Source of the DNA: a virus
Taxonomy: Duplodnaviria > Heunggongvirae > Uroviricota > Caudoviricetes
Direction: 5' to 3' (one strand)
Length of the DNA stretch: 64,000 bases
IMG/VR virus record: IMGVR_UViG_3300009826_000001
Location: 1 to 64,000 of that record
Shown: in pieces, positions 4,059 through 44,100 of the stretch
How positions within the stretch are numbered: position 1 is the stretch's first letter
Layout: each line of letters starts with the position of its first letter
Notes under the pieces: model-generated
What the model was told of the DNA's origin: nothing
The model's database searches: none
Seen by the model: the letters and a program-made list of their open reading frames with translations, nothing else
Program-made: the position numbers and the translations under genes

Positions 4059-4312
4059 GACTCGGTAACGCCGAAGGATCGGGTCGGATACGGCGGGGGT
4101 GTCAGGTCGAGGTCGGCGACCTTTTGCCCGTCGACCTCGACGCGGACATAGCCAGCGTCGTGCGGGATGAACTGGGCGATCCTGTCGTCTCCGATAAAGA
4201 TCGCGACGTGCTCGCCGTTGATGATCGCGTCCCACATGCGGTCATTCTGTTTGGTCAGCAGTCTTTGCAGCGCGATGGTGCTCCACACGCTGCGGTCGAT
4301 GTCGTCGCTCAT
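4055..4312 (-). CDS. hypothetical protein (85 aa)
   Basis: start MSDDID; ATGA overlaps on both sides. Confidence 0.5.
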   Translation of the reverse strand: MSDDIDRSVWSTIALQRLLTKQNDRMWDAIINGEHVAIFIGDDRIAQFIPHDAGYVRVEVDGQKVADLDLTPPPYPTRSFGVTES

Positions 4313-5175
4313 GACTGCGGCATCGGGATGACGGGCAGGCCCGGTTGCGTGGAGTTGGGCCAGCACCCGATGGGGCTGCGGTCCTTGTGCGCGTCCAGGC
4401 ACTTGCTCACCAGCACGTTGGGGTCGTTGCTCACCGACTGGCGCAGCTTCTCGTTGGCCTTGGCATCGGCCTCGGCGGTCTTCTCGCGCTGCTCGGCCAC
4501 GCGGGTGTTGGCCTTCTCGATGTTCAGCGCGTTGATCCGGTCCTGAGTGTTGTTGTCGTAGGCCACCAGCGGCACGAACACTTTCTGAATCTCCACCCGG
4601 TCACCCACGGCGCGCTGCACGTCGGCCTGCACCCGCTCGGAGATCCCCACCAGCGGCGCGCCGTCGCTGGCGCCGGGAGCCAGCGGGTCGAACTTGGCGA
4701 ACTCGGTGTTGAGCGCCACGGCCAACTCCTTGTTGACCAGGTTGTCGCGGATGCCGTCGAAGTTGCGGTAGTCCAGGAACAGGCTCGGCGCGGCCTTGGG
4801 GTCCAGCCGCCACTGGATCGTCACGTTGGCCGTGGCCGTGGAGTTGTTGCCCAGGCGCACCACCATGCCGTGATCGGTGCCCTCGAACTTCTCGAGCTGC
4901 ACTGCGCCGTCCATGTTGGTGACGTTCTGCCACGGTGCGGTCCAGTGCAGGCCGTTGGACAGCTCCCCTTGTGGCCGGCCGAAGGTCGTGACGATGCCGA
5001 TGTCGCGGGTGGGCACGATGGTCGCAGTGGAGAACATCAGCAGTAGTCCCGCCAGGAGCGCGCAGCCGATGGCGGTGCCCCAGGCGGGCGCCCGCGCGCT
5101 GCGCACCGCGAGCCCGAAGATCACAGCGCCCAGCGCCACCAGAACCAACAGGCCGATCACAACGACGATGAACAA
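4309..5175 (-). CDS. SPFH/band-7 (stomatin/prohibitin/HflKC-like) membrane protein
   Basis: N-terminal TM helix, then VPTRDIGIVTTFGRP...LSNGLHWTAPWQNVTNMDGAVQ SPFH-like core and EKANTRVAEQREKTAEADAKANEKLRQ coiled coil. Confidence 0.65.
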   Translation of the reverse strand: MFIVVVIGLLVLVALGAVIFGLAVRSARAPAWGTAIGCALLAGLLLMFSTATIVPTRDIGIVTTFGRPQGELSNGLHWTAPWQNVTNMDGAVQLEKFEGTDHGMVVRLGNNSTATANVTIQWRLDPKAAPSLFLDYRNFDGIRDNLVNKELAVALNTEFAKFDPLAPGASDGAPLVGISERVQADVQRAVGDRVEIQKVFVPLVAYDNNTQDRINALNIEKANTRVAEQREKTAEADAKANEKLRQSVSNDPNVLVSKCLDAHKDRSPIGCWPNSTQPGLPVIPMPQS

Positions 5176-5865: not shown

Positions 5866-6059
5866 GGCCCCATCAGCTCGCTGATCGCTTGCTCGGTGGG
5901 GCTAATGGTCTGGCGCATCTGCTCGATGACCTGCGCACGCATGTCGATGGCCTGGACCAAGCGTCGTGCGGCGTCGATCACTGCGGCCGACGAAGCCGGT
6001 CGCGGCCAGTGAGCGTGCGCCTCCAGTGCTTCGCGCAGCTCGTCGAGCGGTGAGCCCAT
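5862..6059 (-). CDS. hypothetical protein (65 aa)
   Basis: start MGSPLDEL overlaps rsr stop (TGATG). Confidence 0.4.
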   Translation of the reverse strand: MGSPLDELREALEAHAHWPRPASSAAVIDAARRLVQAIDMRAQVIEQMRQTISPTEQAISELMGP

Positions 6060-7771
6060 CAGATGAGGCCGGCCGAGAACTGGCTGATCACCTGCGGAAC
6101 ATTGCTGTCGAACCCAGAGATGTCGATGCTGCCCGCATCCTTCGGGTCGGCGATCGACGTCCCGTTGGCGGTCATGGCCACCACGCCGTAGCGCGTGGGC
6201 CCGTAGCGGTCCCGGTAGGTCTTGAGCGCCTGGTGCGGGTGGATGCTGCCGTACCAGGTTTCCCCGTCCGTGAGCGTCCAGATGGCGTCGAAGTTCAGGT
6301 TCTCCTTCGCCGCCCACTGCATGGGCAACGAGCAGTCCGTCGCGCCGAAGCTCAGGCCGGCCATGTAGCGGCACACGTCGTCGAGGCGACGGCGCGGAGT
6401 GATGTCCAGCCGGGTGGCCGCCGAATTGCGACGCGTGTAGGCGCCGTAACCGCCGCGCTGACCGTCCGAGAACCCGATGATCTCAGCGTCCTTCTCGACG
6501 TTGAGCGTCACCAGCGCGAGCGCGGCCACTGCCTCGCGGCAGGAGATCGGCAGCCCCGACACCGCGCCCCCCATTGAACCCGACACATCGCAGGCCAAGA
6601 GCACCTTCTTGCCGCACGGCTCGACCGCTCCGTAGGCCGCGTAGAACGCGGCGTCCAGCGCGTCGGTCATCTTGGGCGTGGGCGTCCAGGTGGACTCCCC
6701 ACGCGCGGAGCGGCCACTGGCGTAGGTGCGCTGGGCCACCAGCACGTTGATCGGATGCACCCGGCCGCGCTTGAGCCGCTCGGCGTCCTGCAAGTCGCGG
6801 GCGATCACGTTGCCGTAAGCGGAGGTGGTCAGGCCCAGCCGGGTCAGGCGCGGGAGCTGGCGCATGAGCGCGGTGATCGGCATCCCGCCTTCGGCATCCA
6901 GCAGCGCCTCCCACACGCTCGGCTCAACCAGCGCGGCATCGGGCAGCATCTCCCAGGACAACGAGGGATTGTCAGTGATGATCCGAATCCACTGGCTTGC
7001 GCTGGTCGCGGCCTGCGCCTCGATGAACGCGTTGACCAACGCGGGAAGCGCGCGCGGGGTTGCACTCGCGGTGAGCGGAGAGCCCCACGCGTACCCGTTA
7101 CGGTGCCTGTCGGTGATGGCGTTGACGCGCTCGCTGTCGCGTCCGGCCATCGTGTCCACGATGTAGCTGTAGAGCGCATCGCGTGACGCGTCATTGGGGC
7201 ACGGGTGGCTCAGCGCGAGCAGGTCGGCGTGGCGCCAGCCCTCCCGCTGGCGGTACTTGAGCACCTGGTAGGCGAGCTTCTCGGCGTCCTTGGCGTTGTA
7301 CCAGTCAGCCACGGCGCGCTTAAGCGCGCGGCCCCAGCCGCGGAAGTTCTGCACATATCCGGCGAACAGGTACAGGTGACTGGCGGTGCGGCACACGGCG
7401 GGAAGCTTGGAGAGCGCGTAGGCGCGATCGTCTGCGCGCTGCGCCAACGACGCGGCGACAGCCAGCGCGAAGATCGCCGGGTTCTGCCGGGGTGCGCGGC
7501 CCTGTGTGGAGATTTCGGTGAGGGCATCGACGAGCAGGATCGGGCTGGTCTGCGCAAGCTCGACGACGACCTGGGCGTTCTCGCGGGTGAGCTCCGGCTC
7601 GCGCGTGTAGTACGTTCCGCCCTCGGTGCCCAGCGTCAGGAACCGGCGCAGCCGGGTGAACTGGTCGGTGCCGAACACGAAGCCGCCGGCGGCGTTTTTG
7701 ACGGTCGCATCGCCGGCGGGCTGGTTCTGCGGGGTGGCCCGCGTGGAGATCGCGGACAGGGCATCGGCCAT
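6059..7771 (-). CDS. rsr: Ro60 orthologue (TROVE domain + vWA/MIDAS domain), Rsr-like RNA-binding protein
   Basis: RLRRFLTLGTEGGTYY and RQNPAIFALAVA match the Ro60 TROVE signature; C-terminal vWA with LLACDVSGSM MIDAS (DxSxS). Confidence 0.9.
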   Translation of the reverse strand: MADALSAISTRATPQNQPAGDATVKNAAGGFVFGTDQFTRLRRFLTLGTEGGTYYTREPELTRENAQVVVELAQTSPILLVDALTEISTQGRAPRQNPAIFALAVAASLAQRADDRAYALSKLPAVCRTASHLYLFAGYVQNFRGWGRALKRAVADWYNAKDAEKLAYQVLKYRQREGWRHADLLALSHPCPNDASRDALYSYIVDTMAGRDSERVNAITDRHRNGYAWGSPLTASATPRALPALVNAFIEAQAATSASQWIRIITDNPSLSWEMLPDAALVEPSVWEALLDAEGGMPITALMRQLPRLTRLGLTTSAYGNVIARDLQDAERLKRGRVHPINVLVAQRTYASGRSARGESTWTPTPKMTDALDAAFYAAYGAVEPCGKKVLLACDVSGSMGGAVSGLPISCREAVAALALVTLNVEKDAEIIGFSDGQRGGYGAYTRRNSAATRLDITPRRRLDDVCRYMAGLSFGATDCSLPMQWAAKENLNFDAIWTLTDGETWYGSIHPHQALKTYRDRYGPTRYGVVAMTANGTSIADPKDAGSIDISGFDSNVPQVISQFSAGLI

Positions 7772-7791
7772 AGTGATTCCTCTCTGGTTGG

Positions 7792-7866
7792 GGCATGAAC
7801 GAAGTAGGTGTGACCGGATGATTTCTCATTGCAAGGGAGGTAACCGATCACAATCCGGCTCATGCC
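7792..7866 (-). ncRNA. structured RNA-like repeat unit 1 (75 nt; Y-RNA-like/tRNA-mimic candidate)
   Basis: 7-bp terminal stem GGCATGA/TCATGCC; conserved internal motif GAACGAAGTAGGTGTGACCGG; inner GCCGGA/TCCGGC stem; D-loop-like GATCGGTTA on minus strand; strand uncertain. Confidence 0.4.
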
Positions 7867-7876
7867 AGGGGTTGAG

Positions 7877-7948
7877 GGCGTGAACGAAGTAAATGCCGAC
7901 TGGGATTATCTTCCTGAAAGGTAACCAACCGGACTAGCGGCTCACGCC
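7877..7948 (-). ncRNA. structured RNA-like repeat unit 2 (72 nt)
   Basis: terminal stem GGCGTGA/TCACGCC; ACGAAGT motif; inner GCCG/CGGC stem; D-loop-like GGTTGGTTA. Confidence 0.4.
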
Positions 7949-7957
7949 AACATCTTG

Positions 7958-8082
7958 CGCCGCGAACGAAGTGGGTGTGACCGGCGTTTACCTGCTCTGC
8001 CAGTTGAGCTTCGAGACTGCCCCAGCAGTCCCGGTCGGATTCGAACCAACAACACTGATAACCGATTACGTCCGGCTCGCGA
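7958..8082 (-). ncRNA. structured RNA-like repeat unit 3 (125 nt) with tRNA T-arm mimic
   Basis: terminal stem GCCGCGA/TCGCGAC (1 mismatch); GAACGAAGTGGGTGTGACCGG motif; minus-strand GTTGGTTCGAATCCGAC T-arm-like element (8030-8050) and GACTGC-TGGG-GCAGTC hairpin. Confidence 0.45.
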
Positions 8083-8092
8083 CAACATCTGC

Positions 8093-8209
8093 GTGACGAA
8101 CGAAGTAGGGGCGATCCGCACTCGGTATTTCCCGACCCCGGGCCGGGCGTTCTTTCTTGAACTATCACCCTGCGGGCGAACAGGTAAGCGAATCATTTCG
8201 GCTCGTCAC
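8093..8209 (-). ncRNA. structured RNA-like repeat unit 4 (117 nt)
   Basis: terminal stem GTGACGA/TCGTCAC; GAACGAAGTAGGGG motif; no T-loop. Confidence 0.35.
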
Positions 8210-8219
8210 CGAAGTTGTG

Positions 8220-8384
8220 GGTGGGGAACGAAGGGGTTGGCAACCGGAGAGGGCTTACGCCCAGCGAGTTAGGCCACTACTCTACGGCCCGCTCACGCTT
8301 CTCAACGCTTCGCAGGCCGGCGGGATTCGAACCCGCGATCTCATCTTTGACAGAGATAACCAATTGCACGGTCGGCTCCCCACC
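8220..8384 (-). ncRNA. structured RNA-like repeat unit 5 (165 nt) with tRNA T-arm and D-loop mimics
   Basis: 8-bp terminal stem GGTGGGGA/TCCCCACC; minus-strand GCGGGTTCGAATCCCGC (perfect T-arm) and AATTGGTTA D-loop-like; no matching acceptor or anticodon arm. Confidence 0.45.
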
Positions 8385-8394
8385 ACAAGCTAGA

Positions 8395-8514
8395 GGACGC
8401 GAGCGAAGAAGGTGAAGACCGGGTTTCACGCCGGGGCGAAACCCGACGCGGCAGGGTTTGAACCTGCTATGCCAAGTTAACCGATCATCGAACGGCTCGC
8501 GTCCCTATTCAGCT
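8395..8514 (-). ncRNA. structured RNA-like repeat unit 6 (120 nt) with T-arm mimic
   Basis: 10-bp terminal stem GGACGCGAGC/GCTCGCGTCC; minus-strand GCAGGTTCAAACCCTGC T-arm-like and GATCGGTTA D-loop-like. Confidence 0.45.
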
Positions 8515-8630
8515 TTCAAGCAACAACTCAGGGTATGTACGGCGTACATGCTTGTCAAGGACATGTTTTCCCGGCGCGCCGCGAGTCATTACCCATTGCC
8601 GCCCGGATTCGGGCATACAGTGGCGATGTG

Positions 8631-8855
8631 ATGAGAATCCTCGTGGCGGCCCAGATCGGCGGTCGCAACGTGACCGAGACGGTGGAAGTGCCCAACGAGA
8701 CGCGCCAGGCGTTCCGCATGGCGATCGGTGACATCGCGTGCCGCCTGGAGCTGTCCACCTACGGCCCTCCCAGTCCCGTCGAGGAGATGACAATGGAGGA
8801 TCAGCCGGTGAACCTGGGCCAGTCTTTCGCGCGTGGGCCCAAGCCTAATGGCTAA
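8631..8855 (+). CDS. hypothetical protein (74 aa)
   Basis: in-frame ATG at 8631 within ORF 8535..8855; MRILVAAQIGGRNVTETVEV... Confidence 0.4.
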   Translation: MRILVAAQIGGRNVTETVEVPNETRQAFRMAIGDIACRLELSTYGPPSPVEEMTMEDQPVNLGQSFARGPKPNG

Positions 8856-34671: not shown

Positions 34672-35144
34672 TGGTCGGTGCGGTGATCACGCGGCACTGG
34701 CCGGCCTTGGTGCGCGATGTCCTCGCGCTGGGCTACCGGCCAACCGACCTGTTCACCAAGCTGAGCTTCTCCGAAGTCGCCTGCATCATCATCGCCTCAC
34801 CTCCCAACAGCGCGGTGCGCCATTCCGTCGACAAGGGCTGGAGCCGCGAGGCGCACCTGCTGGCGAACATGGCCGAAGGTGAGGCCGGCATCGCCAAGAT
34901 CAAGGAGCCCTATCAACGGCCCGGCGTGACCGAACGCCAGTCCGACGACCCCACCCAGAACCCGTTCTTCACCGCCGATGCGCTGACCTGGGAGGAATTC
35001 GACCGGCGTGAGAAAGAACGCTACGACCCCAACCGTAAGCACGTGAAACGACCCGGTAGCAGTCATTCCCGGGCGCTGCAGAGCTCGGGCCCCCGCCCGG
35101 TTCCTAAGGTCAACGAACTGAAGTTCGGCAGGAACCGTAAATGA
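34171..35144 (+). CDS. tail assembly chaperone G-T product via programmed -1 frameshift near 34653-34669
   Basis: -1 frame open from 34653 through 35144; G-run CCGGGGGAA in the 17-nt overlap window; T ORF ends 3 nt into the TMP start. Confidence 0.5.
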
Positions 35145-38100
35145 CGGCTTTCGGCACCAACCTGTGGGTCACCGTCCTGCCCGCCCTGCAAGGGTTGCAG
35201 GAGCGGTTCCGTGAGGCCGGCCGACTGGCCGGCGTGGCGATGGGCTACGCCGCCGGCGAGCACGTCAGCAACGCGCTCATCCAGCACGCCTCGCGCGCCG
35301 GCCAGTCGGCTGGCGCAGCAGCGGCCACCGAGTTCGGCCAGAGCTTCGGCCAGGGCGTCACTGGCGGTCAGGCCATCGGCCAGATCCAGTCCGTGCTCAC
35401 CGACTCGTTCAAGGGCTTCGGCGGAAAGCTCGCCGCCGACTTCGTGGCCGACTTCAACAACGCGCTGCAGGGCAAGGGCCTCAACTTCGGCGACCTGATG
35501 AGGCCGATGGACCAGCTCGAGAACGCGATGCTGGGCCCGATCCAGCGCGTGACCGAGCACATCCCATTGATCGGCACAGCGCTACGCGAGGTCAAGGCAG
35601 ACTTCGACACCTTCCAGGCCGCCGGTATCGGCTGGCTCTCGTCGCTGACCGACATCGCCAACCGCTACCAGGAGATCGCGCGCACGATCGCCGGCCAGAC
35701 GGTGAACACCAGTGCCATCGAGCAATACACCGGGCTTGTGCGCGACATCATGGCCTCGGGCGCACTGGTGCGTGTCGAGGATCTGGGCACCGCAATTGGC
35801 CGGCTAGGCAACAACATTCGCGATCTGGACCCTACCCAGCTCGGCGAGCTTGCCAAGAACTTCGCCCAGGTCGAGGAAGTTGTCGGCAACATCGACGCCG
35901 AGAAGTTCGCCGGCGTGCTCTCGGCGTGGCAGGTGCCTGCGACGCAGGCCAACGAAACGCTGACCATGTTGGGCAACGTCGCCCGAGATAGCGGCCAGAA
36001 GATCAACGCCACCATGTCCGAGATGATCTCGGCCGGCCCCGCGCTGCGTGCGATGGGCTACGACTTCATGCAGACGGCGATGCTGTTCTCCGAAGCTGCC
36101 AAGTACGGTGACACCGCCCAGCGCGCGGTCTATGCGTTCACCCACGCTTACAAGCAGTTCATCGACCTCAACGTCGATCCCAAGGCCGGCATGAAGCAGG
36201 TCCTGGAAAACATCAAGGCGATGACGGAGTCCCCGGACCCGCAACTGGAACGTGCGGGTGTGCAACTCGCCGAGCAGGTGTTCGGCCAGCGCGCCGCGGC
36301 CACCCTCGTCGACATGCTCAAGAAGGGCATCCTCGACGCCGCCGATGCGATGCACGTGCCTGAGGCATTCAAGAAGGAAATGGGCGAGACGGTCGAGCAG
36401 ACGGCCACGCTGGGGCAGGAATGGGAGCGCGTCGGAGCGCAGATTCAGGCCGCGCTGCAACCGGTTGGCACCGCACTGGCGGGCTCGCTGGCGCAATCCA
36501 CCCGCGGCATCTCGGAGTGGCTGGCCGAGAACCAGGCCAAGATCCTGGGCTGGGGCGAGCAGATCACCCAGGTGGTCCTGAGCGGCGTCCAGCACATGAT
36601 GAGCTTCTTCGGCGAGGCGCTGCAGGCCGGGGCGACGTTCGTCAACGCCTTCAAGGAGATGGTTTACGTCGGCTTCGAGGCCATCCTGCAGCCGCTGCAC
36701 GGCTTCACTGAGCTGCTGGCCAAGGCCCATGTGCCGCATTTCAAGGAGATGGCCGATGACCTCGGCCTGATCCAGCAGAAGATGAACCAGATCCACGACT
36801 TCGACGCGGGCCGGTTCACCTACAACCTGGGCACCGGACTCAAGGAGGGTGCCGACCAGGCTGAGAACATCCGGCAGTCACTGGTCAGCTCCACCGCGCT
36901 GGCCCAGCAGGTGCTCCAGCTGCACGCCGCGTTACGGATGAACATCGGCGGCCAGATGCAGGAGGGCATCGAGCAGATCCGTGACGCGGCCGGCCATCTG
37001 ATACCGCCCACCCCGGACAACCTTGAGCTGCAGCTCAAGGGCAGTGCCGCCCAGCACGAGGCGGCAGTCAAGGCTTTCGAGAACGTCGGCGCCGGCATCG
37101 AATTCGACAAGGACGGCGTGCTAGGCGGCAAGATCCGCAGGGTTTTCGCGCTCGCCGGACACAAGGGCCTCGACGAAGCCCTCAAGGTGTTCAGGGGCGA
37201 GGTCGTCAACATCCCGGTGCAGGCCGTCGACGGTTCGGGGAACGTGATCGACGCCGATCACCCGCTGGTTGGCGGGGATGCGCTGGGCGGCGGCGACATC
37301 GACGTCACTGCGGTGGGCGGGCTGGCGCCGGTCGGCGCGGTGGACGCCAGCGGGATTCCCCGCCCGAGCGGCAGTGCTTTCGGCGGACAGCCGTTGCCGG
37401 CCGGCCAAGCCCCCGCGACACCGCCGGCACCTGCCGCCGACTCAGGTGAGCAGGGCCGCGCCGGGACACCGCCACCGCCGATGCCACCGGCCTTCGGCGT
37501 GCCCAGCACCTCCGGGCTGGTGTGGGGGGATGCCGGGCCGGTCCAGACCGGCACACTAGTCAGCTGGCATCCTGATTACGCCGGCGCGGGTGCCGCCGCC
37601 GGCGGCTTCGGTGTCAGTGAACCGCAACGGGTCCAGCTCGTCTCGATGATCTCCCAGCTGCCGCAGGCCCCGGCGACCGGCGCCGCACCCGACCCGGGTG
37701 CCTACCGCAACTACCTCATCTCCCAGGCGCAGGCCGCCGGCCTGAGCCCGGTTGAAATCGGCATGACGCTGGCCGTCGCCCAGCATGAAACACAGTGGCA
37801 GGAACCGGGATTCATGGGTTTCGGCCCGGAGGCCACTCGGCGTGGATACAACTACGACGCCGATCCCAAGGGCGCGATCGACCAGTTCATCCGGCAGTAC
37901 ACCACCCGCCTGGGACAGGCCCCGGGACTCAACCGCAACGATCCCGCCGCGGTCGCCGATTACATCTGGCACACCGTTCACGGTGCCGCCGACCCTCACT
38001 ACGGTGCCTCGCTGATGTCGACCTACCAGGGCATTGGCCCGACTAGCGGGCCGCTCTCCCCGCAGGCGACCCAGGCGCTGGACCACGCCAGCGACACGGT

Positions 38101-41100
38101 CAAGGGACTGTCTGCGCAGATGCCAGTCGGGTTCGCCGACGCCCGCAGCCTGGCCGACCAGCTCCGGGGCGTCGGTTACCAATGGGGCGGTGCCGGGGAC
38201 AAAGTCAACCAGTTCATGTATGACTGCTCGGGCCTGATCAGCGAGATGTACAAGACGCTGACCGGCCTGCCGGCAGGCCCGGAGGTCAAGGGCGGCCCAC
38301 AGGGCGGCCGGTTCACCACCCAGACCCTGATGGACCCAAAGCAGCTCGCCGCGCTGGGATTCGTGCCGGGCTACGACCCCACCTCGATGTTCAACATCGG
38401 CTTCAACGCGGCACACGTGGCGGGTTCGCTGGGCACCGAGGCGCAGGGCCAGCTCAACATCGAGTCCAATGCCCCGCCCGGCTACGTCCAGGTGGGCGCG
38501 GGCACCAAGGGCGCGCACGACCCGCAGTTCACCCAGTTCGCACACCTGCCCGACTGGATGGTCCGTGGTGCCGGCACGCCGACCGGAACCCCGCAGACCA
38601 TCTGGGGCACCGGCGCCGCCGGCACCCAGACGATTCCGCTGGAAGCGTGGCGAGGCTGGATCGCCGGCGGCAAGCATTACCCGCTGGGAGTCTCTCAAGC
38701 GTCCCCGCAGTTGCAGTATCTGGCCCAGATCATCTCGATGATCCCGCAGTTCAGCGCGCTGCAGGCGACTGCGCAGGGCGGTGGGCTGGAATTTACCGGC
38801 GAGGATGCCCAGCTTCGGGCATTGCACGCCGAGCTTCAAAAATCCGGCATCCCGATGACCGAGGTCCCTGGGGCGCTGGATGTCACGGTGCCCCAAGAGC
38901 ACATGCAGCGGTTGATCTACGACACGATCTCCCACTTCACGCCAGTCGGTCAGGAGGTCAGCTTCGGCGGTCCCGGCGGCGTCAACATCGAGCCGGTGCC
39001 GGCGGGGACAGCCGGAGCGCCACACGCGCCGGCCCCGCCGCATGACATGTCACAGGGCGACTGGGCGGCCCTGGGTGCCGAAACCCTGTTGGGTGGGTTG
39101 GCGGCACGGTTCATCGCGTGGCCGATGATCCGGCGCATCTTCGGGATGGCGCGCGGTCTGCGGGCCGGCGCGCGAGGGGTAACGGGGGGTGCCGGATTCG
39201 GCGGTGCCGCACGCGGTGCTGGCGGCGGCTACGCTGCCGCGTACTGGGCGATCAAGGCCGCAGAAGCTGCGCGCCAAGCACCGCGGGGCGGCTCGGAAGC
39301 TTTGCGCGCGGCAGGACTGGACGTTGACCCGATCAGCCAGCGGCTCTGGGAAAGCGGCCCCACGTTTTTCGAGCGCATCAGTGGGCTGGACAGACTGCGC
39401 AGCATCGCGTCGATGCAGCAGTTCCTCAACCAAGCAGACATGCTCGGCGAGGCGGGTTACCCCGAGGGGCTGCTGCCCCCGGATCTGGGTGCTACAGGTA
39501 TTCCCAGTCCGGCGTTAGTGCGCCGGGCGCACCGGATCGCTGCGGGCGAGTCCGCGCTGCGGCCCGGTTTCGGCGCATTGGAACTGGGAGCCGGGCCGCT
39601 CGGTGAGAGCTTCCGTGATCCGGTCACCGGACAGTTCCTGCCGTCAGCGACCTGGGCTGCCGGTCCCGGCGGGGAGTCGCCCTACCCGTTCGACCTGATG
39701 AGCAGCATGAGCCGGTTCCAGCCCGGCCAGATCGCCACCTGGACAGGCATGGCCCGGCCCACCTTCCTCGATGATCTGGCCGCTGCTCAGCGGCAATTCC
39801 TCCGGTTGGCTCAGCTGCCGGCCGAATCCAACTGGCTCACTCAACTCAACCTCGCTCAGCAGCCTTTCGGCGCGCCGACCTACGACCGTTACCGCGGCCT
39901 GATGAGCACCCTGAGCCAGGCCGCGCCCGGCGACATCCTAGGAGCCGTCCCGGAAGCGCAGCGGATGGCGGCCGATGCTGTCGCATTGGCCCGCAACATT
40001 GGGCTCACCTTCGGTGGGGCGCCGCGTTCGGTATCGGCCCGCGCCCAGGAACTACGCAGCCTGTTCGCGCGAGGACCGGCGGCAACGCCGATCACCGGGG
40101 CGCTCGCCGACATCCCCGCCGACATCATGCAACGGCTCACCGGCGGGGTAGCAGGATTGCCGCTGCTCACCACGCCCGAAGCCCCAGCCGAAGCCTTGAT
40201 CCGCAACATCCAGGCGATGGCGGGACAGGTCGAGCTCCGTCAGACGATGAACTGGCTCGCCGCCGAGGCGCAGGCCCTTTCTGGTGCCGGGCGCCAGTAT
40301 GTGATGCCCGGTGTCGCGATGCCGCAGGGTCTTTTCTTCCAGCAGGCGCAGGCGGCAGAAGCCGCGATCCGGGCCAGGATGGCGGCCGGCGAGCTTGGCG
40401 CAGGTGTGGAGTGGGGCATCGAACGCGGGCCGCTACCCGAGGTTGATCCGCGCATCTACCCGTTGCCACCCGGCGAGATTTATCCCAGTCTCGGTGAGGG
40501 ATACGACCCCACGTCGATAGCGACGGGGCAGCAGATCTATGGCCGCCCACTTCCGGGTGGCGGCATGAGCCGGGACTACTGGATCGAAGGTAGCGGGAAC
40601 TCCTGGCGGCTACACGACCTGCGCACCGGCGGCGAACCGCTCCAGCTCGGACAATACCGGACCCGCAAAGCTGCGACGGAGGGCTTGCGTCAGCATCTGA
40701 CCCAAGTGCGTCGAGCGCAGCAAGAACAGGCGATCGCCCGGGCGAACGAGGTAGCCCGGCGCGCTAGGTCGCTAACGGGCATGGGACCGGCGCTGCGGGA
40801 ATCCACGGCCGAGGTCACCGCACGAATCTCAGAAGCAGTGGCCCAGGCGGGATTCGGCAATATCCCCGAGGCTGCAATGGCCCGGGTGTCGCGTTTTGTC
40901 CAGGACCCCGCCGAGGCGCAGCTGCTCGCCCAGATGCTCGGCATCGAGCCTGGGAAGGTTGAGCCCATCTTCGGTCCCGAGCCACCGCCGACGCCAGCGG
41001 GGATGGTGGCCGAGGCCCAGGCCGCGCTCGAGGCCGGCGAGGCGATCACCCCCAAGGCCGGTGAGGCGACTATCTCGAAGGCCGAAGCCGGCCAGACTTG

Positions 41101-44100
41101 GCGTCGGTACCGTCCCCGCACCGCCGCCGGCGAAGGCAACTTCATCATCTCGGGCAAGCGCGGCCGCTATACCGTCCGTGACCTCACCGAGCGCGGTGCC
41201 GAACGCCAGGTCGGCGGAGAGTACCGCACCGTCACCGAGGCTCGCCAGGAGCTCGAAGCCGAGGTGGAACGGATACACCAGGCTGCGCTCGAGGAACTGC
41301 GGGCCGGCCTGGACGCCACCCGCGCCGTGCAACGCAGCCGCGACATCGCCGACGTGATGGGGATGCTTGAGACGGGGCCGGCGTTTGACACCGGCGGCTT
41401 CGCCGACATATTGCGCGGCCTGCAGCTCCCGGCACCGCCTGCGCCCATTTCCATTCCGTACCCCCAGTTCCCGACGCCGGCAGCTCCCGTCTCCATTCCC
41501 TATCCCCAGTTCCCCGCGCCGCGACCGACTCCCCTGTTGATGCCGCGCGTGCGGCCTACGCCACCGCCGGTATCCAGCGAGACGCTCGCCGGGCGCCCAA
41601 TCCTGGAAGCAGTGGGCCGGATGCCGCGCGCTTGGCCGAGCGAACTACCCGCAGGACCGCCCAGCCCGGCAATCGTGGCGAGTTATCTGGACTCTTTCCA
41701 GAAGTATTGGAACGACCTGAGCCCTATAGAGAAGTACGCGGTCTCGCAGGCTCACGCAATGGGCACCCTTCCGATGGAGGACCTGCTCGCACATGCGGGG
41801 TTCGAGAGTGCCGGCGGCTGGGACCCGGGAATGCTCAGCGCGCTCGAATCCGCCATCGCTCCCACCCTTACCACTTCCGTGCAGGACGTGATCGGAGCCC
41901 CAGCTGCCGCGGCGGCGGGGGCTCCCGCGCCAGCTGCCGCGGCAGCGGCACCTGGAACTTACGCCATCGGTCCCGGTGCCCTCGCGCCCGAAGTCCTCGC
42001 CACACCGCCACGGCCACCGGCCCCACTGGCGCCCCCCGGGCTGCTCAGTCGTCTTCTGACCGAGCGCCCCTCTGTCTCGTGGTTGCCAGCGCCGGTCCAG
42101 CGGGCGCTCGGCCAGCTCAGCGACCTCTACTCCCGGCTTCCCGCGCCGGTACGCACGGGCCTGCGGTGGGGAGGACGCGCGCTGGAAGTCGGCCAGGTCG
42201 CCGGAGCGGGCGTCGAGGCCGCGCACGGTGTCGCCGAGCAGGACACGACGGCAGAGAAGGTTGGTGCGCTGGCCCTTACGGCGGGTGGAACGGCTTTACT
42301 GGCTGCGGCCGCGCCAGAACTCGGTACCTTCGCGGCGGTGCTGGGCGCCGCCGCCGGTGCGGCACAGTTGGACGAGCTCGTTCAGCGACACGCGCCCGGA
42401 CTGGTCGCAGCGACCCAGGACTGGACTCCCGGTGCGATCGCCGACCGTCTGGGAGCAGGAACGCGACGGATTTTCGCCGGCGCTCTGCCGAGATTCTTCG
42501 GACCACCACCCACCGCTCCACCGCCAACGCAGCCGGTTGCACCCACCGGCCCACCGGCCGGTGGGCCACCACCGCCACCGCCGGGGCTGCCCAGCGTCCT
42601 CGGAGCAGGAGGGGGTACGCCGCCAACGGTGCACGTCGTGCCACCCCCCGGCGAGGAACACCGCTGGCGCGGCATTTATCCGGCTATCTCAGGCATGCTT
42701 CCCGGCGGAGCGGACTGGGAAGCGCAATATGGCGGTAAGTCGGGAATCGAGCAGGCCCTCACCGCCGAGCTCGGCTCCGGTGGCATGACGCTAGCCAAGG
42801 ATATTGTCGGCGGGATCAATAAGCTCGGCCCCACGATCGCTGACCTGATTGGTGCGGCAGGCAAGGGCATCGTCGATCTTGCGAGGCCGCCGAGCGAGGC
42901 CGAGCGGCGGGAGTGGGGTCCGGGCTCGGAGTTCGGCGCCCTAGGCAAGGCTCGCGACGAAGCGCCCGTCGCTGACGCCGTCTCCGATGCGGTTGGAGAT
43001 GTCTCCGACGCGGGCGTGGACATTGTGCATAGTGTCGGCGATGCCTTTCATAGCTTTTGGTTCGGTTCTCCGCCCGCGAGGCCGACACCTAAGGCACCCC
43101 CGGTCACACCCCCGACAAAACCCAGCGACACAGGTGGCGACGAGGACTGGGACTCGGAGGACTTCACCGGACCCGAGGGCGTGATCCAGCCCGTCGAGGC
43201 AGCCCCGAAATGGACTGTTACAGAGGGAGTCCCCCAGCCGCTCGCCCCGAAGGATCAACCGGATCAACCGGGCGACACCGGCGGCGGAGGCGGCGGCGGT
43301 GGTGGCGGTGGCACCACCGATAGCGGCGACTTCGATGAGGACGACGACTTCACCGGCCCCGAGGGTGTCATCCAGCCGGCCGAGGCCCCTGCGCCACAGG
43401 CCCCGGCTCAGGGCGGTGGCGGTCCACCGCCGCCCGAGCAACAGGCCGGTGGTCCGCCCCCATTGGAACAGCCCGGTGGCGCCCCCGGGACCACTCCTGG
43501 ACAGCCCCCTCCCACAACCTTCACCACCACCCCCGGCGGCAGCGGCTACGGAACTCCCGTCTTCGTCACGAACTGGCCCGGTGTGGGCGCCGGTACTGGC
43601 GCGGCGGGAGCTCCCCCACCGGCAGCCCCCGCGCCTGCTCCCGCGCCTGCTCCCGCGCCTGCGCCCGCACCCGGCGCCGAGGCGCCGCCAGTAGCCGCCG
43701 CAGCACCGGCCGCAGCACCGCCTACTGGCGCACCACCGGAGGGTGGTCCGGCGGCGCTGGCACCGTCACCGGGAGCTACGGCCGCGACGGGACCCATCCC
43801 GGCCGGAGCCAGCCCTGACCAGATGGCTTACGGAGGGCAGCCGTATGGCCCGCAGGGTCCGATCGACCTCAACTACTTCGACCCCTATTCCCGGTATCCC
43901 GCGATGCACCAGCGGGCCTACCGGACGTGGCTGCATGAGTACGAGCGGTGGCAGATCGAAGTCAGCACCCGGTCCCCGCAGATCGAGCTGCTGAATTCAG
44001 AGCTCGCCAGCGCGAAGTCGGCTTATGACATCGAGCAGCAGAAGTGGGGTGCCATCGTCGCCCGGGGCGAGGCCGAGCAGCGCCTAGGGCATGGGATAGA

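What the first reader, a model, noticed from the sequence alone, without database searches (positions are those of the whole stretch)
7792..8514. Array of six structured RNA-like repeat units, including tRNA T-arm/D-loop mimics, immediately upstream of rsr
Between the rsr start (7771) and 8514 there are six consecutive units of 72-165 nt, each closed by a perfect or near-perfect 7-10-bp terminal stem (e.g. GGCGTGA...TCACGCC; GGTGGGGA...TCCCCACC; GGACGCGAGC...GCTCGCGTCC). Each carries a conserved 21-nt motif next to one stem strand (GAACGAAGTAGGTGTGACCGG and variants) and an inner GCCGG/CCGGC stem. Read on the minus strand (the rsr strand), three units contain near-canonical tRNA T-arms (GCGGG-TTCGAAT-CCCGC; GTTGG-TTCGAAT-CCGAC; GCAGG-TTCAAAC-CCTGC), and all six contain a D-loop-like xGGTTA element (GATCGGTTA, AATTGGTTA, GGTTGGTTA, GATTCGCTTA). 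None has a complementary acceptor stem or an anticodon arm, so they are not genuine tRNAs. This is the architecture reported for bacterial and phage Y-RNA-like (YrlA) RNAs: a Ro-binding terminal helix plus a tRNA-like T/D module. A tandem array of six next to a phage Ro gene is unusual and may be a set of Ro-binding tRNA mimics or decoys.
Basis: partly seen in the sequence, partly recalled or inferred. Interest (0 to 1): 0.85.

Follow-up and report, generated by a model that had tools for sequence, protein, structure and literature searches.

The report
Six Y RNA genes before phage Ro
A phage carries six small structured RNA genes in a row in front of its Ro (Rsr) gene; they belong to the known bacterial/phage Y RNA (YrlA/YrlB) family that binds Ro, so this is an unusually large and varied example of a known thing, not a new kind of element.

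Summary
Between 8504 and 7792, on the rsr strand, lie six units of 72-165 nt separated by 7-9 nt. Each is closed by a 9-11-bp stem and framed by GAGCCG at the 5' end and CTTCGYTC at the 3' end. The gene at 7771-6059 is a Ro60/Rsr orthologue.

Two covariance models built only from units next to rsr in other genomes rank these six as the six best hits of R2 in the whole window. Five have E of 0.03 or lower. U3 is marginal.

Helices in the family covary strongly. The family includes the M. smegmatis YrlA that has been shown to bind Rsr.

The units fall into four classes:
- U2 and U4 are YrlA type, a permuted tRNA (T arm, closed acceptor stem, D arm).
- U1 is YrlB type (T arm plus hairpin).
- U5 and U6 are minimal.
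- U3 carries a D arm plus an anticodon-like arm, a class seen in only two other loci.

Arrays are normal here. By a lower-bound count, bacteria have 1-4 units and phages 2-5. By eye, two phage loci have six and about eight.

Verdict: a new, large member of a known kind. No expression or binding data exist for it.

The parts
8530..8558 (-). Candidate promoter of the array-rsr operon: TTGACA (8558-8553), 17-nt spacer, TACCCT (8535-8530). It lies in the 125-nt gap between U1 and a divergent plus-strand gene.
   Evidence: Read from the sequence. The tool's stricter sigma-70 scan found nothing. TACCCT fits the mycobacterial TANNNT -10 form, which is my own knowledge. This part is an inference.
8395..8504 (-). 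U1: a YrlB-type Y RNA. It has a 10-bp terminal stem, GAGCCG, stem 2, GGTTAAC, a T arm (8467-8451, GCAGG-TTCAAAC-CCTGC), a 9-bp hairpin (8450-8427) and no D arm.
   Evidence: R2 gives 36.3 bits, E 3e-05. It resembles the T-arm-plus-hairpin units in the second position of Mycolicibacterium loci, and L080.
8220..8384 (-). U2: a YrlA-type Y RNA. It has a V hairpin (8356-8339), a T arm (8336-8320, GCGGG-TTCGAAT-CCCGC), a long acceptor-like hairpin (8319-8285), a D arm (8282-8266) and an extra hairpin (8262-8251).
   Evidence: R2 gives 52.4 bits, E 2.3e-08. Rfam gives a partial YrlA match of 20 bits, and a tRNA match of 27.2 bits (GA 29) at 8312-8375. The Levitt-pair equivalent is C:G.
8093..8210 (-). 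U3: a Y RNA of a rare class. It has the Ro-type closing helices and GCTTACC. Its apical module is hairpin 1 (8178-8166), then UA, a D-like arm (8162-8149, GTTC-AAGAAA-GAAC) and an anticodon-arm-like hairpin (8147-8131, 5-bp stem and 7-nt loop). It has no T arm.
   Evidence: R2 gives only 16.6 bits, E 0.21. It is still the fifth-best hit in the window and sits in register in the array. The same module is conserved in L002 2104-2222 and L006 3765-3887, with compensatory changes in hairpin 1.
7958..8083 (-). U4: the most canonical YrlA-type Y RNA. It has a T arm (8050-8034, GTTGG-TTCGAAT-CCGAC), a 9-bp acceptor-like hairpin (8033-8012) and a D arm (8009-7994, GCTC-AACTGGCA-GAGC).
   Evidence: R2 gives 65.8 bits, E 5.6e-11. 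Rfam YrlA RF02553 gives 35.4 bits, E 7.8e-06, below GA 69. The Levitt-pair equivalent is U:A. The family-invariant U8 is A here.
7877..7948 (-). U5: a minimal Y RNA with terminal stem, GAGCCG, stem 2, GGTTACC and a small apical hairpin only.
   Evidence: R3, built from short units of other loci, gives 48.5 bits, E 5.4e-08.
7792..7866 (-). U6: a minimal Y RNA. It ends 20 nt before the rsr start codon.
   Evidence: R3 gives 41.7 bits, E 1.5e-06. R2 gives 21.4 bits, E 0.025.
7777..7784 (-). Shine-Dalgarno-like GAGAGGAA for rsr.
   Evidence: Read from the sequence.
6059..7771 (-). rsr: a Ro60 orthologue of 570 aa (TROVE ring plus vWA domain). It is the presumed protein partner of all six RNAs.
   Evidence: Pfam TROVE 1.5e-49 and vWA_Ro60 7.2e-51. 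It is 56% identical to Ro of Mycobacterium phages Farewell and Sparky.
8631..8855 (+). Divergently transcribed small gene (74 aa) that bounds the promoter region.
   Evidence: In identical metagenome contigs a 74-aa gene is called on the opposite strand, followed by a 64-aa HTH gene. The 860-nt array is left without any gene call. ORFs inside the array have no PHROG match.

Best explanation
The region is a polycistronic array of six Y RNA genes of the bacterial/phage YrlA/YrlB family. It is transcribed with the phage's Ro60 (rsr) gene from a promoter about 20-50 nt upstream of U1.

Inferred steps: host RNases cut the 7-9-nt single-stranded spacers. Each released RNA is then capped by the phage Rsr ring, which binds the conserved bulged helix formed by the RNA's 5' and 3' ends. 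On the 5' strand that helix reads GAGCCG(G/A)A, the local form of the published GNCGAA(N)G motif. On the 3' strand it reads CTTCGYTC.

The variable apical modules then act as adaptors or gates for Rsr:
- Two units display a full permuted-tRNA elbow (T arm, acceptor-like stem, D arm).
- One displays a T arm plus acceptor-like hairpin.
- One displays a D arm plus anticodon-like arm.
- Two display nothing.

By analogy with D. radiodurans, Salmonella and Thermus phage phiLo, the RNPs would couple Rsr to host PNPase or to tRNA-recognising enzymes, and so redirect structured-RNA decay or repair during infection.

What is shown: the sequence and structure anatomy, homology to the family, covariation, and the link to rsr. 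What is inferred: transcription, processing, Rsr binding and the effector.
For: - Partner protein: Rsr identity is established.
- Repeat frame: six units share an identical frame.
- Independent model R2: it was built from 45 units beside rsr in other genomes, with no window sequence. It ranks the six units first to sixth in the window: 65.8, 52.4, 36.3, 21.4, 16.6 and 15.9 bits, against 15.1 for the best background hit.
- Independent model R3: 48.5 bits for U5 and 41.7 bits for U6.
- Family structure: 93.6% of cells are paired and 27 of 39 pairs show compensatory changes. Shifted controls give 37-46% paired. For the short units, 93.3% are paired and 12 of 18 pairs are compensatory.
- Tertiary pair: the Levitt-pair equivalent covaries (C:G 30, U:A 14, U:G 1). 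U2 and U4 obey it.
- Location of family hits: 247 of 256 non-window R2 hits lie within 1.8 kb upstream of rsr on its strand.
- Link to experiment: the family contains the sequence targeted by the M. smegmatis YrlA probe, at 3-5 mismatches. That RNA co-precipitates with Rsr (PMC4201824).
- Rfam: YrlA hits U4 at E 7.8e-06.
- Shared partner: all six units share a lineage-specific 3' strand, CTTCGYTC, absent from 167 units called elsewhere. Their apical modules match different classes in other genomes. This fits six RNAs adapted to one cognate protein.
- Operon layout: there are no terminators between the units and rsr, no ORF with homologues inside the array, and no gene call there in identical contigs.
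- Precedent in phages: phage Ro60 binds two upstream Yrl RNAs and forms a complex with host PNPase in Thermus phage phiLo (PMC12135203).
Against: - There are no expression, processing or binding data for this phage.
- No unit reaches Rfam's YrlA gathering score (35.4 against 69). Units of related mycobacterial and phage loci do not reach it either.
- U3 and U5 score at background level with the YrlA-type model R2. U3 is supported only by its position, the shared frame and two homologues.
- The published AA of GNCGAA is replaced in five of six units (GTT, GAC, GGA, GCT, GGA).
- U4 has A at the otherwise invariant U8.
- The promoter was called by eye and not by the scanning tool.
- RNAalifold prefers an alternative local pairing, GCCGG with TCGGT, for the invariant 5' region. 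This cannot be judged because nothing varies there.
Confidence: 0.8

Rival explanations
1. The six structures act mainly in cis, as a structured 5' leader of the rsr mRNA. Rsr would bind its own leader and autoregulate translation or stability. Stable trans-acting RNAs would be a by-product or absent.
For: The units lie between the candidate promoter and rsr with no terminator. U6 ends 20 nt from the start codon, next to the RBS. The same upstream, same-strand position holds in nearly all loci.
Against: In M. smegmatis, the homologous upstream YrlA and YrlB accumulate as discrete RNAs bound by Rsr (PMC4201824). In Salmonella the Y RNAs lie 3' of rsr (bioRxiv 10.1101/312249), so a leader position is not required. 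Strong conservation of tRNA-like tertiary pairs has no obvious role in a leader. This reading is not exclusive with the main explanation.
Confidence: 0.1
2. The units are tRNA mimics that work independently of Ro. They would be decoys or competitive inhibitors for host enzymes or defence nucleases that recognise tRNA elbows, acceptor minihelices or D/anticodon halves. The link to rsr would be incidental or only stabilising.
For: Four of the six units display different tRNA sub-domains. The phage has no genuine tRNA genes. M. smegmatis YrlA is cut by RNase P and receives CCA, and Salmonella YrlA is modified by TruB and DusA (PMC4201824), so tRNA enzymes do engage such RNAs.
Against: Two units (U5, U6) have no tRNA-like part, yet keep the Ro-type helix. 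That helix is the most conserved part and is homogenised in all six. The family is tied to rsr across roughly 100 loci. Anticodon-loop identity elements such as U33 are absent from U3.
Confidence: 0.07
3. The region is a decayed phage tRNA gene cluster of pseudo-tRNAs with no present function.
For: Near-threshold tRNA scores occur inside U2 (27.2 bits, GA 29) and U3 (16 bits). Related phages carry real tRNAs just upstream of their units, for example Sparky.
Against: ARAGORN finds none. The arm order is permuted (T arm, acceptor, D arm). All units share a non-tRNA closing frame that covaries across genomes. Decay would not preserve compensatory pairs or the Levitt-pair covariation.
Confidence: 0.02
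4. The repeats function at the DNA level, as protein-binding iterons, recombination sites or another repeat-based element.
For: Six direct repeats carrying a shared 21-nt motif (finding).
Against: Unit lengths vary from 72 to 165 nt. Conservation follows base-pairing rather than sequence. Model hits are strand-specific: 45.7 bits against 13.9 bits on the two strands of U5.
Confidence: 0.01

Closest known systems
Mycobacterium smegmatis YrlA and YrlB (Chen et al. 2014, RNA 20:1715; PMC4201824)
   Same: Both are encoded directly upstream of rsr on the same strand. YrlA has the closing helix with a GNCGAA-type motif, the YUAY junction, and T arm, 7-bp acceptor-like stem and D arm. YrlB keeps a T arm only. 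The window's U2 and U4 match the YrlA layout, and U1 matches the YrlB layout. The YrlA probe target recurs, with 3-5 mismatches, in the units used to build R2.
   Different: M. smegmatis has two RNAs and this phage has six. The 3' strand of the closing helix reads CACACGCCC in M. smegmatis-like units and CYACTTCGTTC here. U3, U5 and U6 have no described counterpart in that paper. Binding is shown there and only inferred here.
Salmonella Typhimurium YrlA (Rfam RF02553; crystal structure PDB 6CU1, bioRxiv 10.1101/312249)
   Same: It has a modular design, with an Rsr-binding helix plus an effector module that folds like tRNA using the same tertiary pairs. U4 aligns end to end with the Rfam model.
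   Different: U4 scores 35.4 bits against a gathering score of 69. The Salmonella RNAs lie 3' of rsr in an rtcBA repair operon under RtcR control. No rtcB or rtcA was seen next to rsr here.
Deinococcus radiodurans Yrn1/Yrn2 and the four small RNAs a-d upstream of rsr
   Same: Several small RNAs are encoded upstream of rsr. Both strands of the Ro-binding helix are recognisable. Yrn1 has a T arm and an 'anticodon arm' between tRNA-like elements (PMC4201824), which recalls U3. Yrn1 tethers Rsr to PNPase.
   Different: It belongs to a different sequence lineage and is a cellular, not phage, system. There are at most four RNAs, and only some of them bind Rsr well.
Thermus phage phiLo Yrl1/Yrl2 with phage Ro60 (NAR 2025, PMC12135203)
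   Same: A phage-encoded Ro60 has Y-RNA-like genes immediately upstream. The RNAs bind the phage Ro60 and form a ternary complex with host PNPase.
   Different: There are two RNAs rather than six. No tRNA-like modules are reported in the passages read. The host phylum is unrelated.
Mycobacterium phage prophiGD43A-5 (MW584167) and Sparky (KM083128) rsr loci
   Same: These carry the closest Rsr proteins (55-56% identity). prophiGD43A-5 has six units of the same classes upstream of Ro, including the rare D-arm class. Sparky has two.
   Different: The units are not annotated as Y RNAs in those records, and one is annotated as tRNA-Thr. The order of the classes differs, and so does the helix motif (GA(A/G)CAGGA ... 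CACGTTC). Sparky also has genuine tRNAs upstream.

Membership tests
Bacterial/phage Y RNA, YrlA subfamily (Chen et al. 2014) | Encoded within about 4 kb of a Ro60/Rsr gene on the same strand. | tested here: met
   All six units lie 21-733 nt upstream of the rsr ATG (7771) on the minus strand.
Bacterial/phage Y RNA, YrlA subfamily (Chen et al. 2014) | 5'-proximal GNCGAA(N0-1)G motif, the presumed Rsr contact. | tested here: inconclusive
   GNCG (as GCCG) is present in 6/6. The following AA is present only in U3 (GCCGAAAUG). U4 and U6 have GCCGGA, which is the commonest actinobacterial variant (GGGCCGGAG in A2). U1, U2 and U5 have GTT, GAC and GCT.
Bacterial/phage Y RNA, YrlA subfamily (Chen et al. 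2014) | Helix formed by the 5' and 3' ends, supported by covariation. | tested here: met
   The window units have 9-10 consecutive pairs. In the family, helix 1 is 95% paired and 9 of 11 pairs show compensatory changes. Among the 14 window, L001 and L002 units, it is 95% paired with 5 of 9 pairs compensatory.
Bacterial/phage Y RNA, YrlA subfamily (Chen et al. 2014) | Conserved YUAY at the start of the V region. | tested here: met
   UUAU or UUAC occurs in U2-U6, and UUAA in U1. It sits within TCGGTTA, which is invariant in 45/45 family members.
Bacterial/phage Y RNA, YrlA subfamily (Chen et al. 2014) | Permuted tRNA-like domain: T arm, then acceptor-like hairpin, then U8-A9 and D arm, with G18/G19 and a Levitt-pair equivalent. 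| tested here: met
   This is met by U2 and U4 only. Their Levitt-pair equivalents are C:G and U:A, as in the family. U4 has A in place of U8. U1 lacks the D arm, U3 lacks the T arm, and U5 and U6 lack the whole domain. Those four are Y-RNA-like but are not YrlA in the strict sense.
Bacterial/phage Y RNA, YrlA subfamily (Chen et al. 2014) | Physical association with Rsr, and stabilisation by it. | not testable with these tools
   This needs co-immunoprecipitation or EMSA.
Rfam RF02553 (YrlA) | Score at or above the curated gathering threshold of 69 bits. | tested here: not met
   The best score is U4 at 35.4 bits, E 7.8e-06. There are no hits at gathering level in the window or in 15 related mycobacterial and phage loci. 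The Rfam threshold therefore excludes this whole actinobacterial/phage branch, not only this locus.
Actinobacterial/phage rsr-linked Y RNA family as modelled here (R2, R3) | Significant match to a covariance model trained without the window. | tested here: met
   With R2: U4 5.6e-11, U2 2.3e-08, U1 3e-05, U6 0.025. With R3: U5 5.4e-08, U6 1.5e-06. U3 reaches only E 0.21, which is inconclusive on score alone.
tRNA | Cloverleaf in canonical order with an open acceptor stem and an anticodon arm, detected by tRNA finders. | tested here: not met
   ARAGORN finds 0 genes. The Rfam tRNA model gives 27.2 and 16.0 bits, below GA 29. The arm order is permuted.

The most novel reading that the evidence does not exclude
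The array is a deliberately diversified adaptor set. One phage Ro ring would be served by six RNAs, and four of them display different pieces of a tRNA: the full elbow plus acceptor, a T-arm/acceptor minihelix, and a D-arm/anticodon-arm half. The Ro RNP could then be docked onto several different host tRNA-handling enzymes or nucleases, or could titrate host tRNA-targeting defence factors during infection. The D-arm/anticodon-arm class (U3, with L002 unit A and L006 3765-3887) would be a previously undescribed Y RNA type.
Probability: 0.15. Interest if true: 0.7.

Novelty: new member of a known kind. Interest (0 to 1): 0.4.

Why it matters
Y RNAs are thought to work as interchangeable adaptors that decide what Ro60 does, but the effectors of the tRNA-like bacterial Y RNAs are still unknown. 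This phage packs six Y RNAs of four structural classes and their single Ro partner into 2.5 kb. That makes it a compact natural test bed: one can ask which module recruits which host factor, and why phages carry Ro at all.

There are also two practical points. Rfam's YrlA threshold misses this whole actinobacterial/phage branch. In at least one deposited phage genome, part of such a unit is annotated as a tRNA.

Tried and rejected
- Rfam at gathering thresholds on the window and on 15 related loci gave no YrlA hits. Only the E-value mode gave a lead.
- Megablast of the array against phage genomes found nothing. No close DNA relative exists in that collection, so microevolution of this exact array could not be studied. 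The three metagenome contigs that carry the same Rsr have an identical 869-nt region.
- My first model, R1, joined 5' and 3' halves and included window units. It found only the short units, because long units exceed its window. It was not independent, so I did not use it for membership.
- Iterating an nhmmer profile of the 5' half drifted towards the GGGCCGGAG majority and lost window units. I used it only to show positional specificity.
- My simple stem-finder mis-set some 3' ends, for example L001 2763-2955. Copy numbers are therefore given as model-based lower bounds plus counts made by eye.
- Plus-strand reading was rejected. The plus-strand motif GAACGAAG looks like GNCGAAG, but model scores are strand-specific, and the T arms, D arms and Rfam alignment fit only the minus strand.
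- Coding potential was rejected. ORFs inside the array have no PHROG match, and the region is not called as a gene in identical contigs.
- The sigma-70 scan tool found no promoter. The proposed promoter rests on my own reading of the sequence.
- The supplementary tables of Chen et al. 2014, and the 2020 Annual Review, were not available. I could not check whether multi-copy phage arrays were already tabulated there.
Full report
**What is there**

On the minus strand, the 713 nt from 8504 to 7792 consist of six back-to-back units:

| Unit | Coordinates | Length |
|---|---|---|
| U1 | 8504-8395 | 110 nt |
| U2 | 8384-8220 | 165 nt |
| U3 | 8210-8093 | 118 nt |
| U4 | 8083-7958 | 126 nt |
| U5 | 7948-7877 | 72 nt |
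| U6 | 7866-7792 | 75 nt |

The spacers between units are 7-9 nt. Each unit begins GGnnnGAGCCG and ends CTTCG(T/C)TCnnnCC. Its ends pair over 9-10 consecutive base pairs.

A second helix follows, in which ..TCGG pairs with CCGG... (the bases differ in U2, U3 and U5). Next comes the motif GGTTA(C/T)C, which is GCTTACC in U3 and GGTTAAC in U1. Last comes a variable apical part.

U6 ends 20 nt before the ATG of a 570-aa ORF (7771-6059). That ORF is a Ro60/Rsr orthologue: TROVE 1.5e-49 and vWA_Ro60 7e-51. No terminator-like site separates the units from rsr.

Upstream of U1 there are 125 nt before a divergently oriented small gene. That gene is called on the opposite strand in identical metagenome contigs. 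The gap contains TTGACA-17 nt-TACCCT at 8558-8530. I read this as the promoter, but the scanning tool did not call it.

The window itself is a siphovirus-type phage or prophage. It encodes a terminase, portal, protease, major capsid protein, minor tail proteins and a 3394-aa ORF in the tape-measure position. It has no tRNA gene.

**Is it more than chance, and what family is it?**

Rfam at curated thresholds reports nothing. In E-value mode, the YrlA model RF02553 aligns end to end with U4 (35.4 bits, E 7.8e-06) and partly with U2. The tRNA model nearly reaches threshold inside U2 (27.2 bits against 29).

To get an independent test I collected rsr loci from 80 bacterial genomes, 15 IMG/VR contigs and three deposited phages. 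Nearly all have the same kind of unit upstream of rsr on the same strand.

I built two models that contain no window sequence.

- R2 comes from 45 long units. Their alignment shows invariant TCGGTTA, a T arm, a variable 7-bp hairpin, and GTAGCTCA..AGAGC. On it, my hand-drawn structure is 93.6% paired, against 37-46% when the partners are slid. Of its 39 pairs, 27 show compensatory changes.
- R3 comes from 20 short units. It is 93.3% paired, and 12 of 18 pairs are compensatory.

Searching all 64 kb on both strands with filters off gave these results:

| Unit | Model | Bits | E-value |
|---|---|---|---|
| U4 | R2 | 65.8 | 5.6e-11 |
| U2 | R2 | 52.4 | 2.3e-08 |
| U1 | R2 | 36.3 | 3e-05 |
| U6 | R2 | 21.4 | 0.025 |
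| U3 | R2 | 16.6 | 0.21 |
| U5 | R2 | 15.9 | 0.29 |
| best background hit | R2 | 15.1 | 0.41 |
| U5 | R3 | 48.5 | 5.4e-08 |
| U6 | R3 | 41.7 | 1.5e-06 |

The six best R2 hits are exactly the six units.

Five units therefore have independent statistical support. U3 rests on three things: the shared frame, its in-register position, and two homologues.

The family is the one studied experimentally. The target of the published M. smegmatis YrlA 5' probe recurs, with 3-5 mismatches, in the units that built R2. That RNA co-precipitates with Rsr, is cut by RNase P and receives CCA (PMC4201824).

The 5' GAGCCG(G/A)A is the local form of the published GNCGAA(N0-1)G motif, which is thought to contact Rsr. 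The actinobacterial consensus is GGGCCGGAG or GGGCCGAAG.

The 'D-loop-like GGTTA' is the published YUAY junction, not a D-loop.

U2 and U4 have the YrlA layout. The order is V hairpin, T arm, closed acceptor-like hairpin, (U/A)A, D arm with GG. This is a circularly permuted tRNA.

The tertiary Levitt-pair equivalent covaries in the family (C:G 30, U:A 14, U:G 1). U2 (C:G) and U4 (U:A) follow the rule.

U1 has a T arm stacked on a 9-bp hairpin and no D arm. [quoted passage not shown]

U5 and U6 have only a small apical hairpin.

U3 is different. It has a hairpin, then UA, then a 4-bp D-like arm (GTTC-AAGAAA-GAAC), then G, then a 5-bp stem with a 7-nt loop, then AAAU. That is the D-arm/anticodon-arm part of a tRNA in normal order, without a T arm. 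I found this module in only two other places:

- unit A of the M. abscessus prophage prophiGD43A-5
- one unit of a Mycobacterium MAG

The core UAGUUCAAG..AGAACGCCC is conserved there, and hairpin 1 shows compensatory changes.

**Array context**

Tandem units are the norm. With R2 at E 0.01 or lower, which is a lower bound that misses short or divergent units, the counts are:

| Loci | Units per locus |
|---|---|
| 80 bacterial loci | 0-4 (13 loci have four) |
| 18 phage/viral loci | 0-5 (one truncated locus at 0, the rest 2-5) |

By the same criterion the window has three. Inspection gives six for the window, six for prophiGD43A-5 and about eight for one IMG/VR contig. Six is therefore at the high end but not unique.

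Of the 256 non-window hits, 247 lie within 1.8 kb upstream of rsr on its strand.

All six window units carry the 3'-strand variant CTTCGYTC. It occurs in none of 167 units called elsewhere, where ACACGCCC dominates. The six units of prophiGD43A-5 likewise share their own variant.

So the Ro-type helix is homogenised within an array, while the apical modules match distinct classes across genomes. This is what one expects if all members of an array serve one cognate Rsr. That reading is an inference.

**Mechanism**

The best-supported reading runs as follows:

1. One transcript starts near 8523 and carries six Y RNAs followed by the rsr mRNA.
2. Host RNases cut in the short single-stranded spacers.
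3. Rsr binds and stabilises each RNA through the bulged terminal helix.
4. The apical modules act as adaptors or gates. This is by analogy with three systems:
   - Yrn1 in D. radiodurans, which tethers Rsr to PNPase
   - YrlA in Salmonella, which co-purifies with Rsr and PNPase and is modified by TruB and DusA
   - the Ro60-Yrl-PNPase complex of Thermus phage phiLo

Only the anatomy, homology, covariation and linkage are shown here. Everything else is inferred.

**Rivals**

- A purely cis-acting leader is possible and not exclusive with the main explanation.
- Ro-independent tRNA decoys are unlikely, because the Ro-type helix is the best-conserved part and two units have no tRNA-like part.
- Decayed tRNA genes are excluded by the permuted order and by covariation.
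- DNA-level repeats are excluded by strand-specific structural conservation.

**Novelty**

Y RNAs next to bacterial and mycobacteriophage rsr have been known since 2014: 254 bacterial species and 22 phages. Two per locus are documented in Salmonella and M. smegmatis, and up to four small RNAs in Deinococcus. Two are documented in a Thermus phage.

The papers I could search do not describe arrays of five or more, or the D-arm/anticodon-arm class. The decisive supplementary tables and the 2020 review were not available.

I therefore file this as a new, unusually large and diverse member of a known kind. The interest score of 0.4 rests mainly on three points:

- It is a compact test system for Y RNA adaptor function.
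- It shows that current Rfam thresholds miss this branch.
- tRNA annotation can mislabel these units. For example, 'tRNA-Thr' in prophiGD43A-5 overlaps a 113-bit YrlA-type unit.

Noticed in passing
L002 2250-2328 (Mycobacterium phage prophiGD43A-5, MW584167 26001-26079): The feature annotated 'tRNA-Thr (tgt)' lies inside a YrlA-type unit (L002 2256-2387; 113 bits with R2). The V hairpin CCA-CTTGTAA-TGG was probably read as an anticodon arm, so this is likely a mis-annotation. The same effect gives a 27.2-bit near-tRNA hit inside U2 of the window (8312-8375).
   Followed up: partly
L092 1-1704 (IMGVR_UViG_3300047160_018504): About eight Y-RNA-like units lie in 1.6 kb upstream of rsr, the largest array seen. 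The unit at 687-825 encloses a normal-order tRNA-like domain (Rfam tRNA 32.8 bits at 726-797) within a Ro-type closing helix.
   Followed up: partly
window 7792-8504, compared with 167 units in other loci: All six window units share the 3'-strand variant CTTCGYTC of the Ro-type helix. None of the 167 units called in other loci has it. The six units of prophiGD43A-5 share a different private variant. This suggests concerted evolution within arrays, or co-evolution with the cognate Rsr.
   Followed up: partly
window 35141-45325 (+): A single 3394-aa ORF sits in the tape-measure position between the head genes and the minor tail genes. It is exceptionally long. It was not analysed.
   Followed up: no
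window 4309-5175 (-): An SPFH/Band 7 family protein (Pfam 1.4e-16; PHROG 200 'lipoprotein', 6e-55) is encoded about 0.9 kb downstream of rsr on the same strand. It occupies the same position in all identical metagenome contigs.
   Followed up: no
L099/L100 1-243 (metagenome contigs identical to the window around rsr; about 3 kb upstream of rsr): A gene whose product hits PF25186 (Tad4) lies upstream of the divergent small genes. The exact Rsr protein occurs on 11 metagenome contigs (Logan SRR10512955, JGI 3300010049, ENA ERZ27257292), so the phage is recurrent in environmental samples.
   Followed up: no
L015, L016, L019, L026, L029 (Promicromonospora), 1.6-3 kb upstream of rsr, opposite strand: A second pair of YrlA-type units (99-121 and 44-56 bits) lies on the strand opposite to rsr. 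These are the main exception to the rule that units sit on the same strand immediately upstream.
   Followed up: no
alignment A2 columns 10-15 with 23-28 (window equivalents such as 8494-8490 with 8479-8475 in U1): RNAalifold prefers a local hairpin between the invariant GCCGG of the Rsr motif and the invariant TCGGT before TTA. This pairing would compete with stem 2. Nothing varies there, so it can be neither supported nor excluded. It could be an alternative conformation.
   Followed up: no
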